A stretch of DNA of 64,000 nt, from positions 268,522 to 332,521 of the forward strand of contig JABHQW010000008.1 of assembly GCA_018696595.1 (NCBI GenBank), given 5' to 3'. Under the pieces are notes generated by a model that made no database searches, had not been told where the DNA came from, and worked only from the letters and a program-made list of their open reading frames with translations. The DNA comes from Candidatus Woesearchaeota archaeon (GTDB lineage: Archaea > Nanobdellota > Nanobdellia > Woesearchaeales > GW2011-AR9). This document shows, piece after piece, positions 54,324 to 62,138 of this stretch. Every line of letters starts with the position of its first letter. The stretch's first letter is position 1. A program made the position numbers and the translations under genes.

Positions 54324-54608
54324 TTATTCCTCTTTCAAAGCTGCTTCTAATTTCTTTTCTTCAAAGCCAACAACTACATTTTCTTTAACCAATGTTTTTA
54401 TGATTTCTCCATCTTCTTCTTTCTCTTCAAAGAATTTGACAATAGTTACAGGTGTAGCCATTTGATGAGATTTTTCAATCATTTCATCTCTAGCAGAATC
54501 ACTTTCAGTAAGATCATGTTCGATAAAAGAAATCTTTTTCTTTTTCATCCATGTTTTTAATTTTTCGCACCAAGCGCACGTTGGTATTGAATAAACATTA
54601 ACTTCCAT
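54324..54608 (-). CDS. Glutaredoxin/NrdH-like thiol-disulfide protein
   Basis: MEVNVYSIPTCAWCEKLKTWM CxxC. TPV cis-Pro region ATPVTIV. Start at a leaderless ATG right after TTTATAAAA. Confidence 0.75.
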   Translation of the reverse strand: MEVNVYSIPTCAWCEKLKTWMKKKKISFIEHDLTESDSARDEMIEKSHQMATPVTIVKFFEEKEEDGEIIKTLVKENVVVGFEEKKLEAALKEE

Positions 54609-54683
54609 TTTTATAAACCTCAAATCGTTTTCTAACACTAAATAAAGATAACTTTTATATATAGTTTTTCTTTTATTTAGTTT

Positions 54684-55034
54684 ATGAATGATAAAATCTG
54701 GGCTACGATGAATGTTTCTCTAGTTTTGGTAGCATTGATTTTAACTTTAACTTTGTTTGAAGTAGAACTGCCTACGTTAGGGCAAGCGAAATATGCTTTA
54801 GACAAATCAGAACCTTTATGCATAGTTAATTGGCAAGATTCTTACAATGAATGGAATGATCTAGATTCTTGTTGTGTTGAAGCAAGGAAACAGTTAGATT
54901 GTTCTGAAGGAGAATGGTATTATCAAGACAAAACCGTAGAGTGGCAATGTAAAACCGGTTCTGGAAATGTATTAAAGTACTGGTTGAATGATAAAGCTTA
55001 CAATTATTGCAGACAATTGAATATTTGGAGATAA
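54684..55034 (+). CDS. Small TM-anchored Cys/Trp-rich extracellular protein, hypothetical
   Basis: TM VSLVLVALILTLTLF, then 8 Cys. Confidence 0.4.
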   Translation: MNDKIWATMNVSLVLVALILTLTLFEVELPTLGQAKYALDKSEPLCIVNWQDSYNEWNDLDSCCVEARKQLDCSEGEWYYQDKTVEWQCKTGSGNVLKYWLNDKAYNYCRQLNIWR

Positions 55035-56135
55035 ATGGCTAAGAAAAAACAAAAAAAGAGTAGGTGGAGTTTACAGCAGAAAGTTTTCCTAGTTCTAATT
55101 ATCATTGTTTTAACTTTAGGGAGTTTAAATGTTGCTAAAGCTAAAGGTTGGCTAATTCCTGAACAACCAGAAATCATAATTGTCGATAATACTATTTTAT
55201 TAGATTCATTAACTTTAGAACAAAAAATTGGTCAGATGGTTATTGTTCACGGAGGGTTATGGAATTTAAAACCATGGCAAGATATGCAACTTGGTGGCAT
55301 ACATCACTTCGCGATGCAAACTCCTGAATTATTTCAAGATATAACTGCAAAGTTTCAAGAAGATATGCAAATCCCATTCTTTGTTACTGCAGACTTAGAA
55401 GGTTGTTGGAGTCCTTTTTCTAATTTCAAACAGTTTGTTCCTGTTAATGAAATCAACACAACTGGTGAAGCTTTTGAGAAAGGTTCGATTGAAGGAAAAT
55501 ATTTGAAAGAACTTGGATTTAATTTTAATTTTGCTCCTGTTGTTGATTTAGATGACCAAATTTGGAACTGCCGTGCTTTCCTTGGCAATGAAACTCAAAT
55601 AACTCAATTAGCAGAAGCTTATGCTATTGGATTACAAAACGAAGGTATTATTGCTACTGCAAAACATTATCCTGGAAACACTTTAGTGGCGAATGATCCA
55701 CATAAAGGATTAGTTATAGCGGAGATTAGTTCAGAAGATCAATATCCTTACAATTACTTTTCGGAGAAAGGAAATATTCAAGCAGTTATGGTGACCCACA
55801 TAATCGCTTTTGGTGAAGTAGATTCTAAGGGGGTCCCTTCTGTGGTTTCTGAAGAAGCTGTTGGACAACTTAAGGATGAATATTCTGGGTTAATCGTTAC
55901 TGATGATACAATGATGTTGGGGTTAAGAAATTTTTTCCCTTCCACCGAGGATATGTATGTTGCTGTGTTTAAGGCTGGGAATGATTTAATTATTAACTTT
56001 GATGAAGATCCCAATGAAATTAAACACATGATTGAAGTTGTTCAGGGGGCGGTTCTTGCTGGAGAAATTCCTCAAGAACAAATTGATGATTCTGTAAAAA
56101 GAATTTTGGAAGCGAAAGGCTTTATTGTTGGGTAA
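55035..56135 (+). CDS. Glycoside hydrolase family 3 N-terminal domain protein (NagZ-like beta-hexosaminidase), membrane-anchored
   Basis: KHYPGNTL...DPHKG and GLIVTDDTMMLG match the GH3 catalytic blocks. N-terminal TM. Confidence 0.6.
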   Translation: MAKKKQKKSRWSLQQKVFLVLIIIVLTLGSLNVAKAKGWLIPEQPEIIIVDNTILLDSLTLEQKIGQMVIVHGGLWNLKPWQDMQLGGIHHFAMQTPELFQDITAKFQEDMQIPFFVTADLEGCWSPFSNFKQFVPVNEINTTGEAFEKGSIEGKYLKELGFNFNFAPVVDLDDQIWNCRAFLGNETQITQLAEAYAIGLQNEGIIATAKHYPGNTLVANDPHKGLVIAEISSEDQYPYNYFSEKGNIQAVMVTHIIAFGEVDSKGVPSVVSEEAVGQLKDEYSGLIVTDDTMMLGLRNFFPSTEDMYVAVFKAGNDLIINFDEDPNEIKHMIEVVQGAVLAGEIPQEQIDDSVKRILEAKGFIVG

Positions 56136-56190: not shown

Positions 56191-56913
56191 TCATTTCTTA
56201 TTAGTTTTTAAGTGTAATGTTTTATTATCTATCTCTATTATTTCTTCTTGTTTTATTTTCTGCCATTCTATGTTTGGTAATTGCGGCAATTCTTCTGAAC
56301 TCACAATCAAAAAATCTTTTTTCTTTCCCATTTTCATTTGGTAATACTTTGGTTGGTTATTCTTTTTAATGAACACATAAGATTTATTTCTATTAGCTAG
56401 GATAAAATTTATTCCAGTGTAATTTTGATATTTGTTAAGATTATTTCTAATGGCTTCTATTATATTTTTTTCTTTTTTATTCTCTGTTAGAATCGAACCA
56501 AACAAATGTTCGGAATCTGTGTCTCCTTTAACCGTAAATTTAGAATCATAATAAATTTTATCTCTAACAGTGCCATTATGGCAGAAAATAAATTCATTAA
56601 GTTGGAATGGGTGTGTATTTTCCATCGAAATTTTCCCAATTGTCACTTTTCTAGCATGTAATATCACTAAATTTGTTTTTACGTTTCTGAATTTATTAAC
56701 TTTGGGATCTTTGAAAATAGGTTTTGTTGATTTTTCTACTATCCACCTATTATTCTCTAAATAAGCAATCCCCCAACCTCCGTCATGTTTCCAGTTGCCA
56801 TTCTTGTTTTGATTTCTTTCGTGTTTTTCATTTTCGTCATTGGCCATAGTGACCAAACCATCTAGAAGTAGATTAACATTTACATTTCCAACCGCAATTA
56901 ACATCCGACACAT
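56191..56913 (-). CDS. Class II (Ntn) glutamine amidotransferase-like protein (YafJ/EgtC-type)
   Basis: N-terminal MCRMLIAVG (Cys2 nucleophile). LHARKVTIGKISMENTHPF. FCHNGTV. Confidence 0.7.
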   Translation of the reverse strand: MCRMLIAVGNVNVNLLLDGLVTMANDENEKHERNQNKNGNWKHDGGWGIAYLENNRWIVEKSTKPIFKDPKVNKFRNVKTNLVILHARKVTIGKISMENTHPFQLNEFIFCHNGTVRDKIYYDSKFTVKGDTDSEHLFGSILTENKKEKNIIEAIRNNLNKYQNYTGINFILANRNKSYVFIKKNNQPKYYQMKMGKKKDFLIVSSEELPQLPNIEWQKIKQEEIIEIDNKTLHLKTNKK

Positions 56914-58124
56914 TGTTCAAGGTAACTTTGTTGTTTGTGGGGTTGGTAATCTAAACTTTTTAAATATTCCTGTCTCATAAACAATTGGCCCTGGGCTGCG
57001 GCTTTCTCTGGGTTGGGGTACGGTCCTTTTTCTTTTAAATGTTCCATGATTTTATTTGATGGGTTCATTCTTGTTTGGATCATACCAAAAATTGGTGTTA
57101 AGTACGGAAGATCTTCTTCTGGCAAACCTTCGGATGAGAATTTTAATGTGTCTGATAAATATTGAGCAACATTATTTGACATTAACCCATATTTGATAGC
57201 TTCTGTTTCAAGGGCTTTAAGCGTTGTATAATTTGGTAACACTACTTCTTTATTATCAAATGAATAAACCCCATCTGTTCCTGATATTCTAACTGGGATG
57301 TCTTCTTTTGTTATTCTGTCATTACATCCTTTATACAATGCAATCATGCCTAAAGAGATATCCAAAGGGGTTGTATCAAAACTTCTAATTTCCCACGTGC
57401 CGGTTTCTCCAATTGAATCTCTTTTTCTAATTGGGTGATATCCTGTGCTTTCTGGTTTGAAAAGTTCTTTGAATGCCTCCCTGTCTGTACCTGGTGCGTT
57501 CAACCATTGGTTGAATCTAATGTTATCTCTTATATTAATTTCTTCAATTGATTGAACATAAGGCTGAAGTTGAGCATGTAATGGATAATCCATAAACATT
57601 TGATTTCGTGTCGCATTGATCCTGTGGCAATTAACTCCTTCATTAATTCCATTTAACATTGGTGAGGTTGATGTAGTAGCATAAGATAATGGGTCTAATG
57701 CTGTGAATAACCACATTTGTTCTAAAAGATGATTTGGTGATTGTGAGAAATGGCCATGTATTCCTGATATTCTTCTTTTTAAATCGTTGGCTTCCTGGCC
57801 AATTATTGGGATATAAAGACTCCACTTTTCTTTGTCGTGTCTTTGTTGACTTTCCCCTCCTCCTAATTCACTAACTGTACTAACAGAAATATCATGTTTA
57901 TCACAAATCTCTTCTAATAAATTGAGTTTTGGAAGAATTCCCCTATGTAATTCTTTAACTGTGTTTGCTGGATCTGAGTTCACTTCTACTCTGGCATGGT
58001 TGGATTCATCTACAATTGATCCATCATTTAAAGGATCTTCAATTATTTCTTTTGCCCTATTGGCTAAATAACCTTGCTCATCAATTAAAGCAAATTCATA
58101 TTCTATCCCTGTTGTTGAACTCAT
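56898..58124 (-). CDS. Carboxylate-amine ligase, GCS2 (glutamate-cysteine ligase family 2, YbdK-like)
   Basis: N-terminal TTGIEYEFALID is the GCS2 hallmark. About 400 aa. Overlaps the downstream amidotransferase gene by 16 nt. Confidence 0.6.
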   Translation of the reverse strand: MSSTTGIEYEFALIDEQGYLANRAKEIIEDPLNDGSIVDESNHARVEVNSDPANTVKELHRGILPKLNLLEEICDKHDISVSTVSELGGGESQQRHDKEKWSLYIPIIGQEANDLKRRISGIHGHFSQSPNHLLEQMWLFTALDPLSYATTSTSPMLNGINEGVNCHRINATRNQMFMDYPLHAQLQPYVQSIEEINIRDNIRFNQWLNAPGTDREAFKELFKPESTGYHPIRKRDSIGETGTWEIRSFDTTPLDISLGMIALYKGCNDRITKEDIPVRISGTDGVYSFDNKEVVLPNYTTLKALETEAIKYGLMSNNVAQYLSDTLKFSSEGLPEEDLPYLTPIFGMIQTRMNPSNKIMEHLKEKGPYPNPEKAAAQGQLFMRQEYLKSLDYQPHKQQSYLEQCVGC

Positions 58125-58346
58125 CTTATCATAATTTTTTTATTTTATACTTTTGATTTTTCTTATCTTTTAGTATAGGTAATAGTACACTAATATATAA
58201 ATATTTCTGCAATGGAGTGCTTAAATGGTCTCTTAATCTATTTATTGGTTAATAAAATGGCCAATCCTTAATTCTAAAGAATAATTATTATATGGATTGG
58301 ATTTAAAAGCTAAAAATTGCCTTTATTTGTATTTTGGCAGTCATAA

Positions 58347-58946
58347 TTAAGAGAATTCAATCATTCGGTGATCACGAAATTTTTTTGTTTCCAAAGTATA
58401 AAACGCTTCTTCCATCAATTTTTCGGGTACAGATATACCACCTAAAGCAGGGTCAAAAATATGATAATAATGATTGGAATGTCCAAAAACAACAATAAAA
58501 TTGGAGGTATTTCTTTTTTCATTTCTAATTGGTTTAGTATTTACTCTAAGAAGAAGAATCTTATTTTGATTTAATTTACTTTTAATGTTTACAAGATTGA
58601 TGGTTTTCTCCTCGATTTTAACACCTTGTCTTTCTGCTTCTTTAAGGTGTTGTTTGGAAGAAAACTTTGCTTCTTCAATCTCTTCTTTTTTATATCTATA
58701 AAAACGATAATCTGGGAAGTTATACTCTTTTTTTTCTACAATTACTTTTAGGTTTAATCCTTGTTCTTTTGCATAAGTGGCTAAAGCAAAAATAGAAGAA
58801 CCTCTTGTGGGTAAATTAACTGTTTTTCTCCAAATCTCAAACTCTTTTTCTTTAGTTGCTTTTATTCTTGAATCTAAAGTGGCAAGGATAGTAAGTAATG
58901 AAGAAGCTGCTGTTGTGAAGGGTGTTGTTTGATTGTGGGTTTGCAT
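58347..58946 (-). CDS. Peptidase C39-like/papain-fold domain protein with the catalytic Cys replaced (Q...TTAASS), His/Asp retained
   Basis: QTTPFTTAASSLLTILATL aligns to the C39 Q...CGxAAL block. VVFGHSNHYYHIFDPA aligns to the His/Asp block. Confidence 0.35.
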   Translation of the reverse strand: MQTHNQTTPFTTAASSLLTILATLDSRIKATKEKEFEIWRKTVNLPTRGSSIFALATYAKEQGLNLKVIVEKKEYNFPDYRFYRYKKEEIEEAKFSSKQHLKEAERQGVKIEEKTINLVNIKSKLNQNKILLLRVNTKPIRNEKRNTSNFIVVFGHSNHYYHIFDPALGGISVPEKLMEEAFYTLETKKFRDHRMIEFS

Positions 58947-59047: not shown

Positions 59048-59785
59048 ATGGCACAGAAAAGTAAAAAGAAAGTAAGTAAAATCAAAGTTAAAAAGAAAGT
59101 ATGGTACAAAGTTATTGCTCCTAAAATATTTGGAAACAAAGAAATCGGAGAATCTTATTTACAAGCTCCTGAGAATTCTATTGGTAGAAAGTTAACAGCT
59201 AACCTAAAAGATTTGACTGGAAATGTTAAAGATCAAAACGTTCATATTGGATTACAAATCAACAAAGTTGATGGAAGCACTCTAAGGACTTCAATTGTTA
59301 GTTACAAATTATCTTCTCAATATGTTAAAAGATGTGTGAGAAAGAACTGTAACAAATTAGATCATTATTTTACTTCAAAAACTAAAGGCGGTAAGAATGT
59401 GATTGTTAAATGTTTAATGGTTACTGTGGGTAAAACTCAAAGTTCTACAAGAACTTCTTTAAGACATGAATTACAGAAGAACTTAGAAGAAAGTATTACT
59501 AAATCTGACTTCGCAACATTTATTTCTGGACTAGTTAGTAGAAGAACTCAAATGGACTTGAAAAAGAAACTGAAAAAGATTTATCCAGTAAAAGAAGTTT
59601 CTGTAAGGATGCTTAAACTTAACGAGAAAGGAATTGCGACTGAAGAAACAACAGTGGAAGATAAAACTAAAAAACCTGAAGTTAAAGAAGCTCCAAAGGA
59701 AGTTCCAAAAGAAGTTACAAAAGAAGCTAAAGAAGAAGCTAAAGAGACTCTAAAGGAAACTCCTAAAGAAACAAAAGAAGAATAA
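59048..59785 (+). CDS. rps3ae: Ribosomal protein eS1 (S3Ae) with a K/E-rich tail
   Basis: KKKVWYKVIAPKIFGNKEIGESYLQAPENSIGRKL is S3Ae-like. Confidence 0.85.
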   Translation: MAQKSKKKVSKIKVKKKVWYKVIAPKIFGNKEIGESYLQAPENSIGRKLTANLKDLTGNVKDQNVHIGLQINKVDGSTLRTSIVSYKLSSQYVKRCVRKNCNKLDHYFTSKTKGGKNVIVKCLMVTVGKTQSSTRTSLRHELQKNLEESITKSDFATFISGLVSRRTQMDLKKKLKKIYPVKEVSVRMLKLNEKGIATEETTVEDKTKKPEVKEAPKEVPKEVTKEAKEEAKETLKETPKETKEE

Positions 59786-59817: not shown

Positions 59818-60414
59818 ATGAAATTTTTAACATTCGTAGATTTACATGAAGATAAAAAATATCTGAAAGAACTAATTAAACGAGCTTCGCAAGATGATAT
59901 AGACTTTGTCGTTTGTGCTGGTGATATAACTCTATTTGGTAGGGGCTTACGTTATATTCTCAAACAATTAAATAATCTTAATAAGAAAATATATATTATT
60001 CCCGGAAATCATGAAAGTGATCGAATGTTTAAAGAAGTAATTTCTGATTATCCAAATTGTATCAACTTTAATCGTAAAGTCATTAAGAAAGATGGCTATG
60101 TTTTCTTAGGTTACGGGGGTGGCGGATTTTCTGCTCAAGACCCAGAATTCAGAAAAATATCTCGTGATTGGTACAGCAAGTATCAAGATGATAAAGTTGT
60201 TTTGGTAACTCACGGTCCGCCAGCAAACACAACACTAGATCTCTTAGAAAAAAGGCATGTTGGCAATATGGACTATCGTAAATTTGTGGAGAGAATGAAA
60301 CCTAAATTAATGATTTGTGGTCATTTACATGAGAATGTTGGTATGCAAGACAAGATTGGTAAAACCATTGTTATTCACCCTGGTTGGGAAGGAATGGTAA
60401 TAGAATTAAGTTAA
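59818..60414 (+). CDS. Calcineurin-like metallophosphoesterase
   Basis: DLHED, GDITLFG, GNHES, VTHGPP and GHLHEN metal-binding blocks. Confidence 0.8.
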   Translation: MKFLTFVDLHEDKKYLKELIKRASQDDIDFVVCAGDITLFGRGLRYILKQLNNLNKKIYIIPGNHESDRMFKEVISDYPNCINFNRKVIKKDGYVFLGYGGGGFSAQDPEFRKISRDWYSKYQDDKVVLVTHGPPANTTLDLLEKRHVGNMDYRKFVERMKPKLMICGHLHENVGMQDKIGKTIVIHPGWEGMVIELS

Positions 60415-62138
60415 GCTGCTTTTTGATAAGCAGTAGTTTTCATTGCTTCTTTATATGCTGCTCCCGCTTGGGCATTAGCTTTTTGTAACTGTTCTCCAAA
60501 CTTACTTGCTTCGCCCATATATTTTTTATCCATGCCTAACTTCTTGTGCATCATTGTTCCCATAGAATCGGCTAGATGTTTTGATTGTAATTTATGTAAT
60601 GTTTCGTTTTCATCAATCTTATCTTCTTCTTTTTCAATTAATTCATTCAGTCTTTTAAATGTAAACATTGTTTCTTGTTCAGTTCTTTGGTTTAATGCTG
60701 CAAGATATTTATCCATTCTTTTTTCATCTTCCAATACTCCAGAACTTGCTTGTATTGCTTCTGCTTGGTCTTTCAAAGTTCCTGCAACATCTTGAGTGTA
60801 CATTATAGCAACTAATTTCAGAACAGCAGCAACACCTGCATTTAATGCTTCTTCAGACTGATCTAATGCAGGTAATAACTTAACAAAAGCTTCCATTTTT
60901 CTTTGAGTCATTAAGTTTTGTTCAAGAATTTCTTTTAATTTTTCTTCAAAAGCAAGATCTCCTTTCAATGCTTTAATGTAGTAAGTAAAATATTCATTGA
61001 TACTAGAAGAAGCAGATAAAACCATTCCATGCAATTTTTCACTTCCAGAATTGTCTTCAATACTTTTTTCTAAGGCTCTCTGTTTTTTCTCAACTTTATC
61101 TAATCTATTACTTAATATTTTTTCTCTACTTTTTAATCCTTTACCATATTTACGCTGACTTTTTCCAATCTTAATTACATTTTGTAAGATAGCTCTTAAT
61201 TGTTTAATCTCTAATTCAATGATTTCATTTGCTTTAACAACCTGTTTATGAATTACTTCTAATTCTGCAGAATTTCTTTTTAACATAGAAATTTCCTTCT
61301 TTAATTGAGCAATTAATGCAGGGTCAGCATTATCTCCTTTAGCTTCTTCAGCAATTAACTTATTTCTTTTTTTCCTGATTGCTTTTTTTAATTTTGAAAA
61401 TTCTTTCTTAAAATCTTTTCTTTCTTTCCTTTCTTTTTTCTTAATTCCTTTTAATTCTTTTTTAGCGCGTCTAGCAATTGGAATAAAATCAGCAATTGCT
61501 TTCCTCAACTTTTTAACAAGTTCTTTTTGATGTTCAGAATTTTGTTCTTCATAACTTACTTGATCTTTTAAGTTCTTAGCCAACGCTTCTAATGATTCTT
61601 TAACAAATTCAGCAGTTTTACTATCAATTTGATCAAAATTTCTTAATCCGCGAATCTTATTTTCCAATACTTCTAACTTAGCAACTTCTATTTCTTGTAT
61701 TTTTTCCATCTTAGATTTTTGTTCAACTTCATCTAAGATTGCTCTTGTAGAGTTTTCTAAGTCTGCGGCCATTGCAGCAGTGGTTTGTTCTAACTCTGTG
61801 GTCTTTTCTTCTAACGCTTCAGTATCTCCAGCAACTTTAGCTGCACCTTTGCCTGCTTTCTCTGTTGCACTAGAAACATCATCACCTTTTGGTTTTTTTG
61901 TTACTAACTTTTGGTAAGCTTTTTGTTTTTTCTTATATCCAGCAAAACGCTTATACACTCTCCAAAATGTCGAACCTGCGGATTTTGCTTCTCTTCTTTC
62001 TTTACCGCCTTCTGTTTTACTACGAACAAAAAAAATTAAAATGATCATAACAATAATTACTCCACCTATGGGTAAAGCTTTTGTTCCAAGGTTTGAGAAT
62101 ATATCTCCCAAGTTTGAAAAAACATCTAATATTGCCAT
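60411..62138 (-). CDS. Membrane-anchored coiled-coil protein, 575 aa, hypothetical
   Basis: N-terminal TM GGVIIVMIILIFFV, then a long K/E-rich coiled coil. Confidence 0.5.
   Translation of the reverse strand: MAILDVFSNLGDIFSNLGTKALPIGGVIIVMIILIFFVRSKTEGGKERREAKSAGSTFWRVYKRFAGYKKKQKAYQKLVTKKPKGDDVSSATEKAGKGAAKVAGDTEALEEKTTELEQTTAAMAADLENSTRAILDEVEQKSKMEKIQEIEVAKLEVLENKIRGLRNFDQIDSKTAEFVKESLEALAKNLKDQVSYEEQNSEHQKELVKKLRKAIADFIPIARRAKKELKGIKKKERKERKDFKKEFSKLKKAIRKKRNKLIAEEAKGDNADPALIAQLKKEISMLKRNSAELEVIHKQVVKANEIIELEIKQLRAILQNVIKIGKSQRKYGKGLKSREKILSNRLDKVEKKQRALEKSIEDNSGSEKLHGMVLSASSSINEYFTYYIKALKGDLAFEEKLKEILEQNLMTQRKMEAFVKLLPALDQSEEALNAGVAAVLKLVAIMYTQDVAGTLKDQAEAIQASSGVLEDEKRMDKYLAALNQRTEQETMFTFKRLNELIEKEEDKIDENETLHKLQSKHLADSMGTMMHKKLGMDKKYMGEASKFGEQLQKANAQAGAAYKEAMKTTAYQKAA

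What the first reader, a model, noticed from the sequence alone, without database searches (positions are those of the whole stretch)
56191..58946. Candidate gamma-glutamyl ligation/trimming module: GCS2 ligase + class II amidotransferase + Cys-less C39-like protein
The GCS2/YbdK-type carboxylate-amine ligase (GIEYEFALID) overlaps a YafJ/EgtC-type Ntn amidotransferase (N-terminal MCR) by 16 nt, so the two are co-translated. This is the same enzyme pairing as EgtA/EgtC, which adds and then removes gamma-glutamyl groups. Immediately upstream on the same strand lies a 199-aa papain/C39-fold protein. Its catalytic Cys position reads TTAASS, while the His/Asp block is retained. This is either a Ser/Thr-dependent variant or a substrate-binding pseudo-peptidase, and it recalls BtrH-type gamma-glutamyl transferases. 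Together the three genes suggest an uncharacterised small-molecule or peptide modification pathway using gamma-glutamyl protection.
Basis: partly seen in the sequence, partly recalled or inferred. Interest (0 to 1): 0.6.

Follow-up and report, generated by a model that had tools for sequence, protein, structure and literature searches.

The report
Archaeal ligase–amidase pair with dead peptidase
A small DPANN archaeon carries an amide-bond-making enzyme coupled to an amide-bond-cutting enzyme, next to a highly conserved peptidase look-alike that has lost its catalytic residues. Together they form the commonest version of a variable, uncharacterised locus for small-peptide or amino-acid chemistry.

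Summary
The three genes are real and the domain calls hold: a DUF3335/C39-fold protein (58347-58946), a YbdK-type GCS2 carboxylate-amine ligase (56898-58124) and a stand-alone class-II Ntn amidotransferase (56191-56913). All are on the minus strand, and the last two overlap by 16 nt.

One correction. The C39-like protein lacks the catalytic His (Asn149) as well as the Cys (Thr12). None of 121 orthologues has both residues, while wider DUF3335 relatives keep Q/C/H/D. So it is a pseudo-peptidase. It is nevertheless the most conserved of the three proteins.

The genes lie in a Woesearchaeota-specific variable island between S3Ae and GH3/glutaredoxin:
- At least four diverged GCS2 subtypes are each followed directly by a GATase_4 (gaps of -16 to +69 nt).
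- The island also shuffles in ATP-grasp ligases, racemases, an aminomutase, deacylases and true C39 peptidases.

Most likely the ligase makes a gamma-glutamyl-type amide, the Ntn enzyme hydrolyses such amides (as EgtC and Dug3 do), and the dead peptidase acts as a binding or partner subunit. The substrates are unknown, and membership of EgtA, EgtC and BtrH fails. This is a new variant of a gene association already predicted in 2008, and of moderate interest.

The parts
58347..58946 (-). 199-aa DUF3335/C39-fold pseudo-peptidase. Slots are Q6 (oxyanion Gln kept), T12 (Cys slot), N149 (His slot) and D165 (Asp kept). The protein is basic (pI 9.6) and has no Cys.
58305..58316 (-). Oligo-T runs (T5 and T4) 31-44 nt after the C39-like stop codon. 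Candidate archaeal transcription terminator.
   Evidence: Read directly from the sequence. This is an inference and was not tested.
58194..58208 (-). BRE/TATA-like element (AGAAATA-TTTATATA) about 74 nt upstream of the ligase ATG. Likely the ligase-GATase operon's own promoter.
   Evidence: Sequence. A similar A-rich/TATA block aligns upstream of the ligase in L006, L011, L010 and L004. The spacer has no conserved small ORF and no Rfam match.
56898..58124 (-). 408-aa divergent YbdK/GCS2-type ATP-dependent carboxylate-amine ligase.
   Evidence: PF04107 at 30.7 bits against a cutoff of 21. GhExE signature G6-I-E8-Y-E10. Invariant E8, E10, E40, E47, H125, R233, E245, R247 in 22 homologues. Model pLDDT 92.2. 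Foldseek best hits are YbdK 1r8g and 1tt4 (target TM 0.77-0.80), then gamma-glutamylcysteine ligases.
56898..56913 (-). 16-nt overlap between the ligase stop and the GATase start, consistent with translational coupling.
   Evidence: In 20 adjacent GCS2-GATase_4 pairs from relatives the spacing runs from -16 to +69 nt.
56191..56913 (-). 240-aa stand-alone class-II (Ntn) glutamine-amidotransferase-type amidohydrolase of the YafJ/EgtC/Dug3 kind.
   Evidence: PF13230 at 74.7 bits. Closest solved relative is 1te5 (PA1307), E=1.1e-8. C2, R88, N113-G114 and D133 are present in at least 93% of 32 distinct island copies, and all 32 start MCRM.
54324..54638 (-). YruB-type glutaredoxin-like protein (CAWC motif) on the same strand. 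Only a possible peripheral member of the system.
   Evidence: TIGR02196 at 63.4 bits, below its cutoff of 88.55. In some relatives it follows GATase_4 directly (4-nt gap in L015). It is also present in islands that lack both the ligase and the GATase, so the linkage may simply be conserved gene order.

Best explanation
The region is the minimal three-gene form of a Woesearchaeota-specific variable island devoted to amide-bond chemistry on amino acids or small peptides.

1. The GCS2 enzyme uses ATP to phosphorylate a carboxylate and joins it to an amine. The carboxylate is most probably the gamma-carboxylate of L-glutamate, as in every characterised enzyme of this fold.
2. The GATase_4 protein is translated from the same message. 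It is a self-sufficient Ntn amidohydrolase. Its N-terminal Cys2 attacks a gamma-glutamyl amide, while Arg88 and Asp133 hold the glutamyl alpha-carboxylate and alpha-amino groups. This releases glutamate from the ligase's product or from a derivative of it, as EgtC and fungal Dug3 do.
3. The DUF3335 protein descends from a real cysteine peptidase that partners with amide ligases. It has lost the Cys/His dyad and now acts non-catalytically, as a ligand-binding, specificity or partner subunit. The inactive C39-like domain of HlyB is a precedent.

Shown here (computationally): folds, catalytic-residue status, operon structure, linkage and purifying selection. Inferred: the substrates, the direction of flux, and any physical complex.
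For: Folds and active sites:
- Ligase and GATase domain calls and active-site residues.

Ligase-GATase coupling beyond inherited gene order:
- All 20 complete islands that have a GCS2 also have a GATase_4.
- Spacing is -16 to +69 nt in 20 adjacent pairs.
- At least four mutually distant GCS2 subtypes (0-31% identity to the window ligase) are each directly followed by a GATase_4: the main clade, L015 (537 aa), L031/L063 (516-519 aa) and L056.
- L063 carries two such pairs.

Hydrolase rather than ammonia donor:
- GATase_4 persists with the C39-like gene in islands with no ligase at all (L040, L042).
- Its bacterial relatives are solitary.
- Both characterised stand-alone class-II GATases remove gamma-glutamyl groups (EgtC, PMC5790434; Dug3, PMC12653102).

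Pseudo-peptidase:
- Catalytic-slot mapping and census.
- Wider DUF3335 keeps QCHD (56 QCHD plus 10 QCHN).
- It is the most conserved gene of the trio.

Ligase partnership is a family trait of DUF3335:
- Bacterial GNAT-DUF3335 fusions sit between RLAN-RimK and AstE/AspA.
- There is a DUF3335-AstE/AspA fusion.
- A Woesearchaeal island pairs the C39-like gene with AstE/AspA (L045).
- Where DUF3335 is missing, a true Cys-containing C39 protein (L008, L014) or an ATP-grasp (L005) takes its place next to the ligase.

Prior prediction of the kind:
- Carboxylate-amine ligases next to GATase-like thiol peptidases were proposed to make glutathione-like peptide metabolites (PMC2588565).
Against: - No substrate is identified.
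- The ligase falls far below every curated glutamate-cysteine-ligase or EgtA cutoff, so even glutamate as the acyl donor rests on superfamily-level inference.
- Co-expressing an enzyme that makes an amide with one that cleaves it would be a futile cycle, unless a modification, transfer or export step intervenes. None is encoded in this window.
- All loci with the C39-like gene were found either in one syntenic chromosomal block or by searching with that gene itself, so its 'linkage' is partly ascertainment and inherited gene order.
- The C39-like gene has its own promoter-like and terminator-like signals, and it occurs in islands lacking both enzymes (L019/L020, L036, L045).
- No physical interaction was tested.
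Confidence: 0.5

Rival explanations
1. Two-subunit glutamine-dependent amidotransferase. GATase_4 hydrolyses free glutamine and passes ammonia to the GCS2 ligase, which amidates a carboxylate (R-COOH to R-CONH2). This involves no futile cycle.
For: - The GATase keeps the full glutamine-binding set: C2, R88, N113-G114, D133.
- The 16-nt overlap and the 2-3 nt gaps in relatives fit stoichiometric co-production of two subunits.
- The ligase fold is that of glutamine synthetase, which uses ammonia (PMC2588565).
- Split class-II glutaminase subunits exist in archaeal glutamate synthases (my own knowledge, not tested here).
- This model removes the futile-cycle objection to the main explanation.
Against: - GATase_4 persists in islands without any ligase (L040, L042).
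- It also occurs with ATP-grasp ligases instead of GCS2 (L016, L022).
- Its bacterial relatives are solitary.
- L022 carries a separate class-I GATase as well.
- As far as I know, the characterised stand-alone members of this family are hydrolases and not ammonia donors (PMC5790434, PMC12653102).
Confidence: 0.15
2. A specific sub-case of the main explanation: a low-molecular-weight thiol system. The ligase would be a gamma-glutamylcysteine ligase (as in haloarchaea), GATase_4 a Dug3-like gamma-Glu-Cys hydrolase controlling thiol and cysteine levels, and the nearby glutaredoxin would use the thiol.
For: - The nearest non-DPANN homologue is a haloarchaeal GCS2 protein (P0030, 28% identity).
- The best curated hits are glutamate-cysteine-ligase models, though weak.
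- Some islands add a GshB-like ATP-grasp (L018: glutathione synthase NF003573 at 126.5 bits; L005).
- A glutaredoxin-like gene lies on the same strand and in L015 starts 4 nt after the GATase.
Against: - All GCL and GshB scores are far below their curated cutoffs.
- The glutaredoxin is YruB-type and not a classical glutathione-dependent glutaredoxin.
- The glutaredoxin stays in islands that lack the ligase and GATase, so its adjacency looks like conserved gene order.
- The accessory genes (racemases, D-aminopeptidase, 2,3-aminomutase, SbnA-like PLP enzyme) point to varied non-thiol amino-acid substrates.
Confidence: 0.12
3. The C39-like gene is not part of the module. It is a conserved stand-alone gene, perhaps a binding protein with an unrelated cellular role, that marks one edge of a recombination-prone island. 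Only the ligase and GATase form a functional unit.
For: - It has a separate promoter-like element and terminator-like T-runs.
- The family is far larger (147 hits at E<=0.001, the best 120 at >=50% identity) than the ligase family (29 close homologues).
- It is present in islands with neither ligase nor GATase (L019/L020, L036, L045).
- It is more conserved than the enzymes and than S3Ae.
- Residue 12 (T or C) shows no correlation with island content.
Against: - Gene order around it is shuffled, yet it stays inside the island among ligases and amidases.
- In L063 it sits between two ligase-GATase pairs.
- Where it is absent, a true C39 peptidase occupies the equivalent position next to the ligase (L008, L014).
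- Intact DUF3335 relatives in bacteria are fused or adjacent to ligases and deacylases.
- The islands lacking GCS2 and GATase_4 still place it beside AstE/AspA or RimK/GshB-like enzymes.
Confidence: 0.2
4. A protein-tagging system. The GCS2 ligase would conjugate glutamate or a peptide to a protein (Pup-like or RimK-like), perhaps a ribosomal protein such as the neighbouring S3Ae. The Ntn enzyme would be the deconjugase and the dead peptidase the adaptor.
For: - PafA and Dop share the fold (Foldseek hits 4bjr and 4b0r; PMC2588565).
- DUF3335 relatives accompany RimK, which glutamylates ribosomal protein S6 (PMC10375531).
- S3Ae is always adjacent and ends in a K/E-rich tail, …KETKEE.
Against: - There is no Pup-like small ORF in or near the module.
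- Structural similarity to PafA/Dop (query TM 0.42-0.49) is much weaker than to YbdK or GCL.
- Class-II GATases bind a free glutamyl alpha-amino and alpha-carboxylate group, which suits small molecules.
- The S3Ae adjacency is shared by islands with completely different content.
Confidence: 0.04

Closest known systems
EgtA/EgtC of actinobacterial ergothioneine biosynthesis
   Same: A GCS2-family gamma-glutamyl ligase is paired with a stand-alone class-II Ntn amidohydrolase that later removes the glutamate (PMC5790434). The EgtC model is the best NCBIfam hit for the GATase.
   Different: Scores are far below the equivalog cutoffs (EgtC 58.5 against 218.65; EgtA has no hit for the window ligase). 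No egtB, egtD or egtE was detected nearby. The lineage is archaeal DPANN. There is an additional pseudo-peptidase partner.
Uncharacterised carboxylate-amine ligase plus 'glutamine amidotransferase-like thiol peptidase' neighbourhoods (Iyer, Burroughs and Aravind 2008, PMC2588565)
   Same: The same logic: a GCS2-sized ligase next to a GATase-like peptidase, no Pup-like ORF, and a predicted role in making glutathione-like peptide metabolites.
   Different: Those were described in proteobacteria and firmicutes with a different ligase family. Here the setting is a Woesearchaeota-specific island with a class-II Ntn GATase, several GCS2 subtypes and a DUF3335 pseudo-peptidase. I could not check the 2009 follow-up paper because it is not held.
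Bacterial GNAT-DUF3335 / RLAN-RimK / AstE-AspA clusters
   Same: The same DUF3335 family sits next to ATP-dependent amide ligases and glutamyl/aspartyl-amide hydrolases. L045 keeps the AstE/AspA partner.
   Different: The bacterial DUF3335 domains keep Q/C/H/D and are fused to GNAT. The window protein is stand-alone, is T/N/D, and is partnered with GCS2 and GATase_4.
Inactive C39-like domain (CLD) of HlyB-type ABC transporters (PDB 3zua)
   Different: The CLD is an N-terminal domain of a transporter and binds an RTX toxin. The window protein is a soluble stand-alone protein with a DUF3335-specific insertion (invariant FPDYRFYRY, residues 77-85), and it lacks the His as well.
Yeast Dug2-Dug3 glutathione-degrading complex
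   Same: A stand-alone class-II GATase-like protein (Dug3) that hydrolyses a gamma-glutamyl bond and works within a complex (PMC12653102). That Dug2 is a peptidase homologue is my own knowledge.
   Different: Dug2 is an M20/WD40 protein and not a papain-fold protein. This is an analogy only.
YbdK (E. coli; PDB 1r8g, 1tt4)
   Same: The closest solved fold and family for the ligase. YbdK has only weak gamma-glutamyl:cysteine ligase activity, as cited in PMC2588565. That its physiological substrate is still unknown is my own knowledge.
   Different: Only 13-16% identity. The window ligase belongs to a DPANN-restricted clade and is operonic with a GATase_4.

Membership tests
GCS2 / YbdK carboxylate-amine ligase (PF04107) | Profile score above the Pfam gathering threshold | tested here: met
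   30.7 bits against a cutoff of 21. The match covers residues 6-207 only.
GCS2 / YbdK carboxylate-amine ligase (PF04107) | GhExE Mg/ATP signature and conserved acidic, His and Arg active-site residues (PMC2588565) | tested here: met
   G6-I-E8-Y-E10. E8, E10, E40, E47, H125, R233, E245 and R247 are invariant in 22 homologues.
GCS2 / YbdK carboxylate-amine ligase (PF04107) | Glutamine-synthetase-type fold closest to YbdK or GCL | tested here: met
   Model pLDDT 92.2. Foldseek 1r8g E=1e-12 and 1tt4, target TM 0.77-0.80.
Glutamate-cysteine ligase proper (GshA, plant GCL, EgtA equivalogs) | Score above the curated equivalog cutoff | tested here: not met
   Best is 23.6 bits against cutoffs of 371-463. 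EgtA TIGR03444 does not hit the window protein.
Glutamate-cysteine ligase proper (GshA, plant GCL, EgtA equivalogs) | Glu plus Cys ligase activity | not testable with these tools
   Needs an enzyme assay.
Class-II (Ntn) glutamine amidotransferase, GATase_4 (PF13230) | Profile score above the cutoff | tested here: met
   74.7 bits against 23. Closest PDB entry is 1te5, E=1.1e-8.
Class-II (Ntn) glutamine amidotransferase, GATase_4 (PF13230) | Nucleophilic Cys directly after the initiator Met, plus Arg, Asn-Gly and Asp glutamyl-binding residues | tested here: met
   All 32 distinct island copies start MCRM. C2, R88, N113-G114 and D133 are conserved in at least 93% of them.
EgtC (ergothioneine amidohydrolase, TIGR03442) | Equivalog score and an egtB/egtD/egtE genomic context | tested here: not met
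   58.5 bits against 218.65. Neighbours within about 5 kb are GH3, a Cys-rich protein, glutaredoxin, S3Ae and a metallophosphoesterase.
Peptidase C39 (active double-glycine cysteine peptidase) | C39 / papain-like fold | tested here: met
Peptidase C39 (active double-glycine cysteine peptidase) | Catalytic Cys at the N-terminus of helix 1 | tested here: not met
   Thr12 occupies the slot. Across the family it is T in 95 and C in 21 of 121.
Peptidase C39 (active double-glycine cysteine peptidase) | Catalytic His | tested here: not met
   Asn149 occupies the slot. Across the family it is N 106, Q 5, H 5, S 3. No member combines Cys and His.
Peptidase C39 (active double-glycine cysteine peptidase) | Fusion to, or neighbourhood with, an ABC exporter and a double-glycine leader peptide gene | tested here: not met
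   No ABC transporter and no small conserved ORF in the window locus or in the related islands.
DUF3335 (PF11814) | Profile score above the cutoff | tested here: met
   67.3 bits against 25, over residues 4-169.
DUF3335 (PF11814) | Q/C/H/D catalytic set typical of the wider family | tested here: not met
   56 QCHD plus 10 QCHN among distant relatives, against T/N/D here.
BtrH-type acyltransferase (BtrH_N, PF14399) | Profile match and a catalytic Cys/His for acyl transfer | tested here: not met
Pup ligase / depupylase (PafA/Dop) | Close fold match and a Pup-like small ORF nearby | tested here: not met
   Query TM 0.42-0.49, below YbdK or GCL. No conserved small ORF.
NAGGN synthetase Ngg (TIGR03103) | DUF3335 as part of the Ngg architecture (a recollection I tested) | tested here: not met
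   Bacterial GNAT-DUF3335 proteins hit TIGR03103 only in the GNAT part, 18-24 bits against a cutoff of 569.
Dug2/Dug3 complex | Sequence orthology to Dug3, and a peptidase-homologue partner forming a complex | not tested

The most novel reading that the evidence does not exclude
The DUF3335 pseudo-peptidase is an obligate non-catalytic specificity or activator subunit of the Ntn amidohydrolase (and/or of the ligase). Together they would form a new type of heteromeric gamma-glutamyl-peptide amidase or transferase. On this reading the variable island encodes a DPANN-specific family of small gamma-glutamyl, D-amino-acid or beta-amino-acid peptides, made, exported or recycled for the archaeon's host-dependent lifestyle.
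Probability: 0.15. Interest if true: 0.65.

Novelty: new variant of a known kind. Interest (0 to 1): 0.45.

Why it matters
DPANN archaea have tiny genomes and few biosynthetic pathways. Even so, this lineage keeps a fixed chromosomal slot that is always filled with amide-bond ligases and amidases, plus a dead peptidase that is more conserved than a ribosomal protein. Working out the product would have three benefits:
- It would assign a physiological substrate to a YbdK-type ligase. To my knowledge that family still has no agreed function.
- It would add a third characterised role for stand-alone class-II GATases, after EgtC and Dug3.
- It would give a clean natural example of a peptidase converted into a non-catalytic subunit.

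It could also reveal a small-peptide metabolite relevant to the interactions between DPANN archaea and their hosts. None of this overturns current concepts. The general pairing of a ligase with a GATase-like peptidase was predicted in 2008.

Tried and rejected
1. **Precursor peptide or riboswitch in the 222-nt spacer upstream of the ligase.** No conserved small ORF, no Rfam hit at E<=1 and only a TATA-like block conserved. Rejected.
2. **NAGGN/Ngg connection (my recollection that Ngg contains DUF3335).** Only the GNAT part matches, far below cutoff. Rejected.
3. **Ergothioneine pathway membership.** Fails the equivalog scores and the genomic context.
4. **BtrH-like transferase.** No profile hit and a weaker fold match than C39.
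5. **A second ligase or accessory enzyme elsewhere in the 64-kb window.** A tblastn search with island ATP-grasp, AstE, racemase, amidohydrolase and short-C39 seeds found nothing at E<=0.01.
6. **Correlation between the residue at slot 12 or 149 and island content.** None.
7. **Independent linkage test outside the archaeal syntenic block.** The bacterial relatives of the GATase are solitary. This shows the linkage is clade-specific. It also means there is no cross-phylum confirmation.
8. **The 2009 Iyer et al. amidoligase survey.** It could not be read, so I cannot exclude that this exact archaeal arrangement is mentioned there.
9. **Promoter/terminator scanner.** The sigma-70 tool was not used because the organism is archaeal.
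10. **Three-dimensional residue mapping.** Mapping the invariant basic and aromatic residues of the C39-like protein onto the model was not possible, because coordinates are not exposed.

Full report
**What is there**

The window has low GC (about 31%). Its genes include S3Ae, Cbf5 and eIF-1A homologues. Homologues of the three proteins come almost entirely from Woesearchaeota and Nanoarchaeota metagenome bins, so this is a DPANN archaeon.

On the minus strand lie three ORFs:
- a 199-aa ORF at 58347-58946;
- a 222-nt spacer;
- a 408-aa ORF at 56898-58124;
- a 240-aa ORF at 56191-56913, overlapping the previous one by 16 nt (…CAATGTGTCGGATGTTAA).

Pfam assigns them as follows:
- DUF3335, the 'Peptidase_C39 like family' (67.3 bits), plus a partial Peptidase_C39 match;
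- GCS2 (30.7 bits, weak but above the cutoff of 21);
- GATase_4 (74.7 bits).

**The ligase**

It carries the GhExE signature of carboxylate-amine ligases (G6-I-E8-Y-E10; the signature is defined in PMC2588565). Its acidic, His and Arg positions are invariant across 22 homologues.

A high-confidence model (pLDDT 92.2) matches YbdK best (1r8g and 1tt4, target TM 0.77-0.80). Next come plant and bacterial gamma-glutamylcysteine ligases, with glutamine synthetases and PafA/Dop further away.

It does not reach any curated glutamate-cysteine-ligase or EgtA cutoff. Its clade has only about 29 close members in a 5.8-billion-protein index, and the next relative is a haloarchaeal GCS2 at 28% identity. 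It belongs to the GCS2 fold and family, but its substrate is unknown.

**The GATase**

Every island copy begins Met-Cys, and Arg88, Asn113-Gly114 and Asp133 are conserved. This is the class-II Ntn machinery that binds a glutamyl moiety and cleaves its gamma-amide.

Its closest solved relative is PA1307 (1te5), a YafJ-type protein of unknown function. The EgtC model is its best NCBIfam hit, but at 58.5 bits against a cutoff of 218.65.

The two characterised stand-alone enzymes of this type both remove glutamate from gamma-glutamyl-cysteine derivatives (EgtC, PMC5790434; Dug3, PMC12653102).

**The C39-like protein**

Profile alignments to 6mpz and to a genuine short C39 protein from a related locus map the catalytic slots:

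| Slot | Window residue | Status |
|---|---|---|
| Oxyanion Gln | Gln6 | kept |
| Catalytic Cys | Thr12 | lost |
| Catalytic His | Asn149 | lost |
| Catalytic Asp | Asp165 | kept |

Across 121 orthologues the combinations are T-N-D 76, C-N-D 21, T-H-D 5, T-Q-D 5 and T-S-D 3. No member combines Cys with His.

An exhaustive profile search of 1.8 billion representatives found 207 relatives. The distant ones, including bacterial GNAT-DUF3335 fusions, mostly keep Q/C/H/D (56 QCHD plus 10 QCHN). The Woesearchaeal clade is therefore a catalytically degenerate offshoot of a genuine cysteine-peptidase family.

It is not decaying:
- 27 columns are invariant in 35 sequences.
- Its median identity to the window orthologue is 57.6%. 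That compares with 52.7% for S3Ae, 47.3% for the GATase and 41.0% for the ligase in the same genomes.
- The invariant set is rich in Arg, Lys and Tyr: P46-T47-R48, FPDYRFYRY at 77-85, R134, N136, K138, N146 and S148.
- The protein is basic (pI 9.6).

This would suit binding an acidic ligand or partner, but that is inference.

**Linkage**

I gathered 14 loci through the ligase and 51 through the C39-like gene, and annotated them with iterated profiles.

All lie in one syntenic block: Cbf5, metallophosphoesterase, S3Ae, then the island, then GH3, a Cys-rich protein, glutaredoxin and GPDH. Conservation alone could therefore just be inherited gene order.

Several observations go beyond that:
- **Internal order is shuffled.** Arrangements include C39L-GCS2-GAT4; GCS2-C39L-(opposite-strand 251-aa gene)-GAT4; GCS2-GAT4-C39L; and GCS2-GAT4-C39L-GCS2-GAT4 in L063.
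- **GCS2 always brings a GATase_4.** All 20 complete islands with a GCS2 also have a GATase_4. In 20 adjacent pairs the spacing is -16 to +69 nt.
- **Several GCS2 subtypes pair with GATase_4.** At least four mutually distant subtypes (0-31% identity to the window ligase) are each followed directly by a GATase_4. A fifth subtype (L018) has a GshB-like ATP-grasp and the C39-like gene in between.
- **A papain-fold partner recurs.** Among 12 distinct ligase-anchored loci, 7 carry the DUF3335 protein and 2 carry a short genuine Cys-containing C39 peptidase right after the ligase (L008, L014). One has an ATP-grasp in that position (L005).

In the 27 complete islands found through the C39-like gene (about 22 after collapsing duplicates), 23 have GATase_4, 20 have both enzymes and 4 have neither.

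Limits on this evidence:
- The C39-like gene's ubiquity is partly ascertainment, because many loci were found by searching with it.
- It appears to be transcribed separately. There are oligo-T runs after its stop codon and a conserved BRE/TATA-like element about 74 nt upstream of the ligase.
- Bacterial relatives of the GATase are solitary, so no cross-phylum confirmation exists.

**What the island is about**

Accessory genes in other versions of the island include the following:
- GshB-, RimK- and Ddl-type ATP-grasp ligases;
- Asp/Glu racemases and a DppA-type D-aminopeptidase;
- a KamA-family 2,3-aminomutase (lysine or glutamate type);
- AlaDH-like dehydrogenases;
- an SbnA-family PLP enzyme;
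- Amidohydro_2 and Amidohydro_3 proteins, and an AstE/AspA deacylase;
- a class-I GATase;
- an MFS transporter;
- an Lrp/AsnC-type regulator.

This is the toolkit for making and breaking amide bonds between acidic or non-proteinogenic amino acids.

Intact DUF3335 proteins in bacteria sit between an RLAN-RimK glutamate ligase and an AstE/AspA deacylase, or are fused to AstE/AspA. One Woesearchaeal island keeps that AstE/AspA partner (L045). Association with amide ligases and glutamyl/aspartyl-amide hydrolases is therefore a trait of the whole DUF3335 family. The papain-superfamily survey also notes GNAT fusions that may act as peptide ligases (PMC10318531).

**Mechanism**

The best-supported reading has three parts:
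1. The ligase forms a gamma-glutamyl-type amide.
2. The co-translated Ntn enzyme hydrolyses such an amide.
3. The dead peptidase serves as a binding or partner subunit.

I favour a hydrolase over an ammonia-donating glutaminase subunit for three reasons. GATase_4 persists with the C39-like gene where no ligase is present (L040, L042). It accompanies ATP-grasp ligases as well as GCS2. Its bacterial relatives are solitary.

The main weakness is the futile-cycle problem. The window's minimal form encodes no step between ligation and hydrolysis, and no extra ligase was found anywhere in the 64 kb. The amidotransferase rival solves that problem and stays open at about 0.15.

A thiol (gamma-Glu-Cys) sub-case is suggested by the weak GCL and GshB similarities and by the nearby glutaredoxin. 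Against it, the glutaredoxin is YruB-type and stays in islands that lack the enzymes.

A protein-tagging reading is unlikely. There is no Pup-like ORF and the fold match to PafA/Dop is weaker.

**Comparison and novelty**

[quoted passage not shown] EgtA/EgtC is a characterised instance.

Four things are new here:
- the archaeal, DPANN-restricted setting;
- the fixed chromosomal slot with modular content;
- the several GCS2 subtypes each coupled to a GATase_4;
- the highly conserved DUF3335 pseudo-peptidase.

Full-text searches found no description of this locus. The 2009 amidoligase survey could not be read.

I rate it a new variant of a known kind, with moderate interest (0.45).

Noticed in passing
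window 54684-55034 (+) and 55035-56135 (+): A 116-aa Cys-rich protein (6 Cys, N-terminal hydrophobic segment, no Pfam or NCBIfam hit) ends exactly where a membrane-anchored or secreted GH3 protein begins. The GH3 is a NagZ-like beta-N-acetylhexosaminidase (NF003740 at 79.9 bits, below its cutoff). The pair is conserved in about 26 related loci. A NagZ-like enzyme is unexpected in a DPANN archaeon and may point to scavenging of host cell-wall sugars.
   Followed up: partly
window 59048-59785 (+): Ribosomal protein S3Ae has a long K/E/P-rich C-terminal tail ending …KETKEE. It is divergently transcribed from the C39-like gene across only 101 nt. Since DUF3335 relatives accompany RimK, which glutamylates ribosomal protein S6, the adjacency is curious. 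However, islands of any content share it.
   Followed up: no
window 60411-62138 (-): A 575-aa protein with an N-terminal hydrophobic segment and a long charged, coiled-coil-like body has no credible Pfam match. The gene at the same position in relatives varies widely in length (about 257-621 aa).
   Followed up: no
L001 7922-8677 (-), also L007, L009, L023, L049, L053, L057: A 251-aa ORF with no family match lies on the opposite strand between the C39-like gene and GATase_4 in the 'GCS2-C39L-…-GAT4' arrangement. It is conserved at about 50% identity between loci and is absent from the window.
   Followed up: partly
L017 4674-5975 (+), also L025, L028, L032: A 433-aa protein with no Pfam hit even at E<=1 recurs immediately upstream of the C39-like gene. 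It may be an unrecognised island component, possibly a ligase.
   Followed up: partly
L063 (whole island): A duplicated module: GCS2 (516 aa)-GATase_4-C39L-GCS2 (419 aa)-GATase_4, using two unrelated GCS2 subtypes. This is the clearest single piece of evidence that the ligase and the GATase travel as a unit.
   Followed up: partly
L048 4895-7969 (+): An island version containing a KamA-family 2,3-aminomutase (lysine type 434 bits, glutamate type 414 bits, both below their cutoffs) followed by two AlaDH/PNT-like dehydrogenases. This suggests a beta-amino-acid building block.
   Followed up: partly
window 1-64000: ARAGORN detects no tRNA gene anywhere in the 64 kb.
   Followed up: no
L006, L010, L011, L012, L014 (record titles): Several public MAG records that carry this Woesearchaeota-type syntenic block are titled 'uncultured Methanosarcinales archaeon'. 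This is probably a taxonomic mislabel in the deposited assemblies.
   Followed up: no
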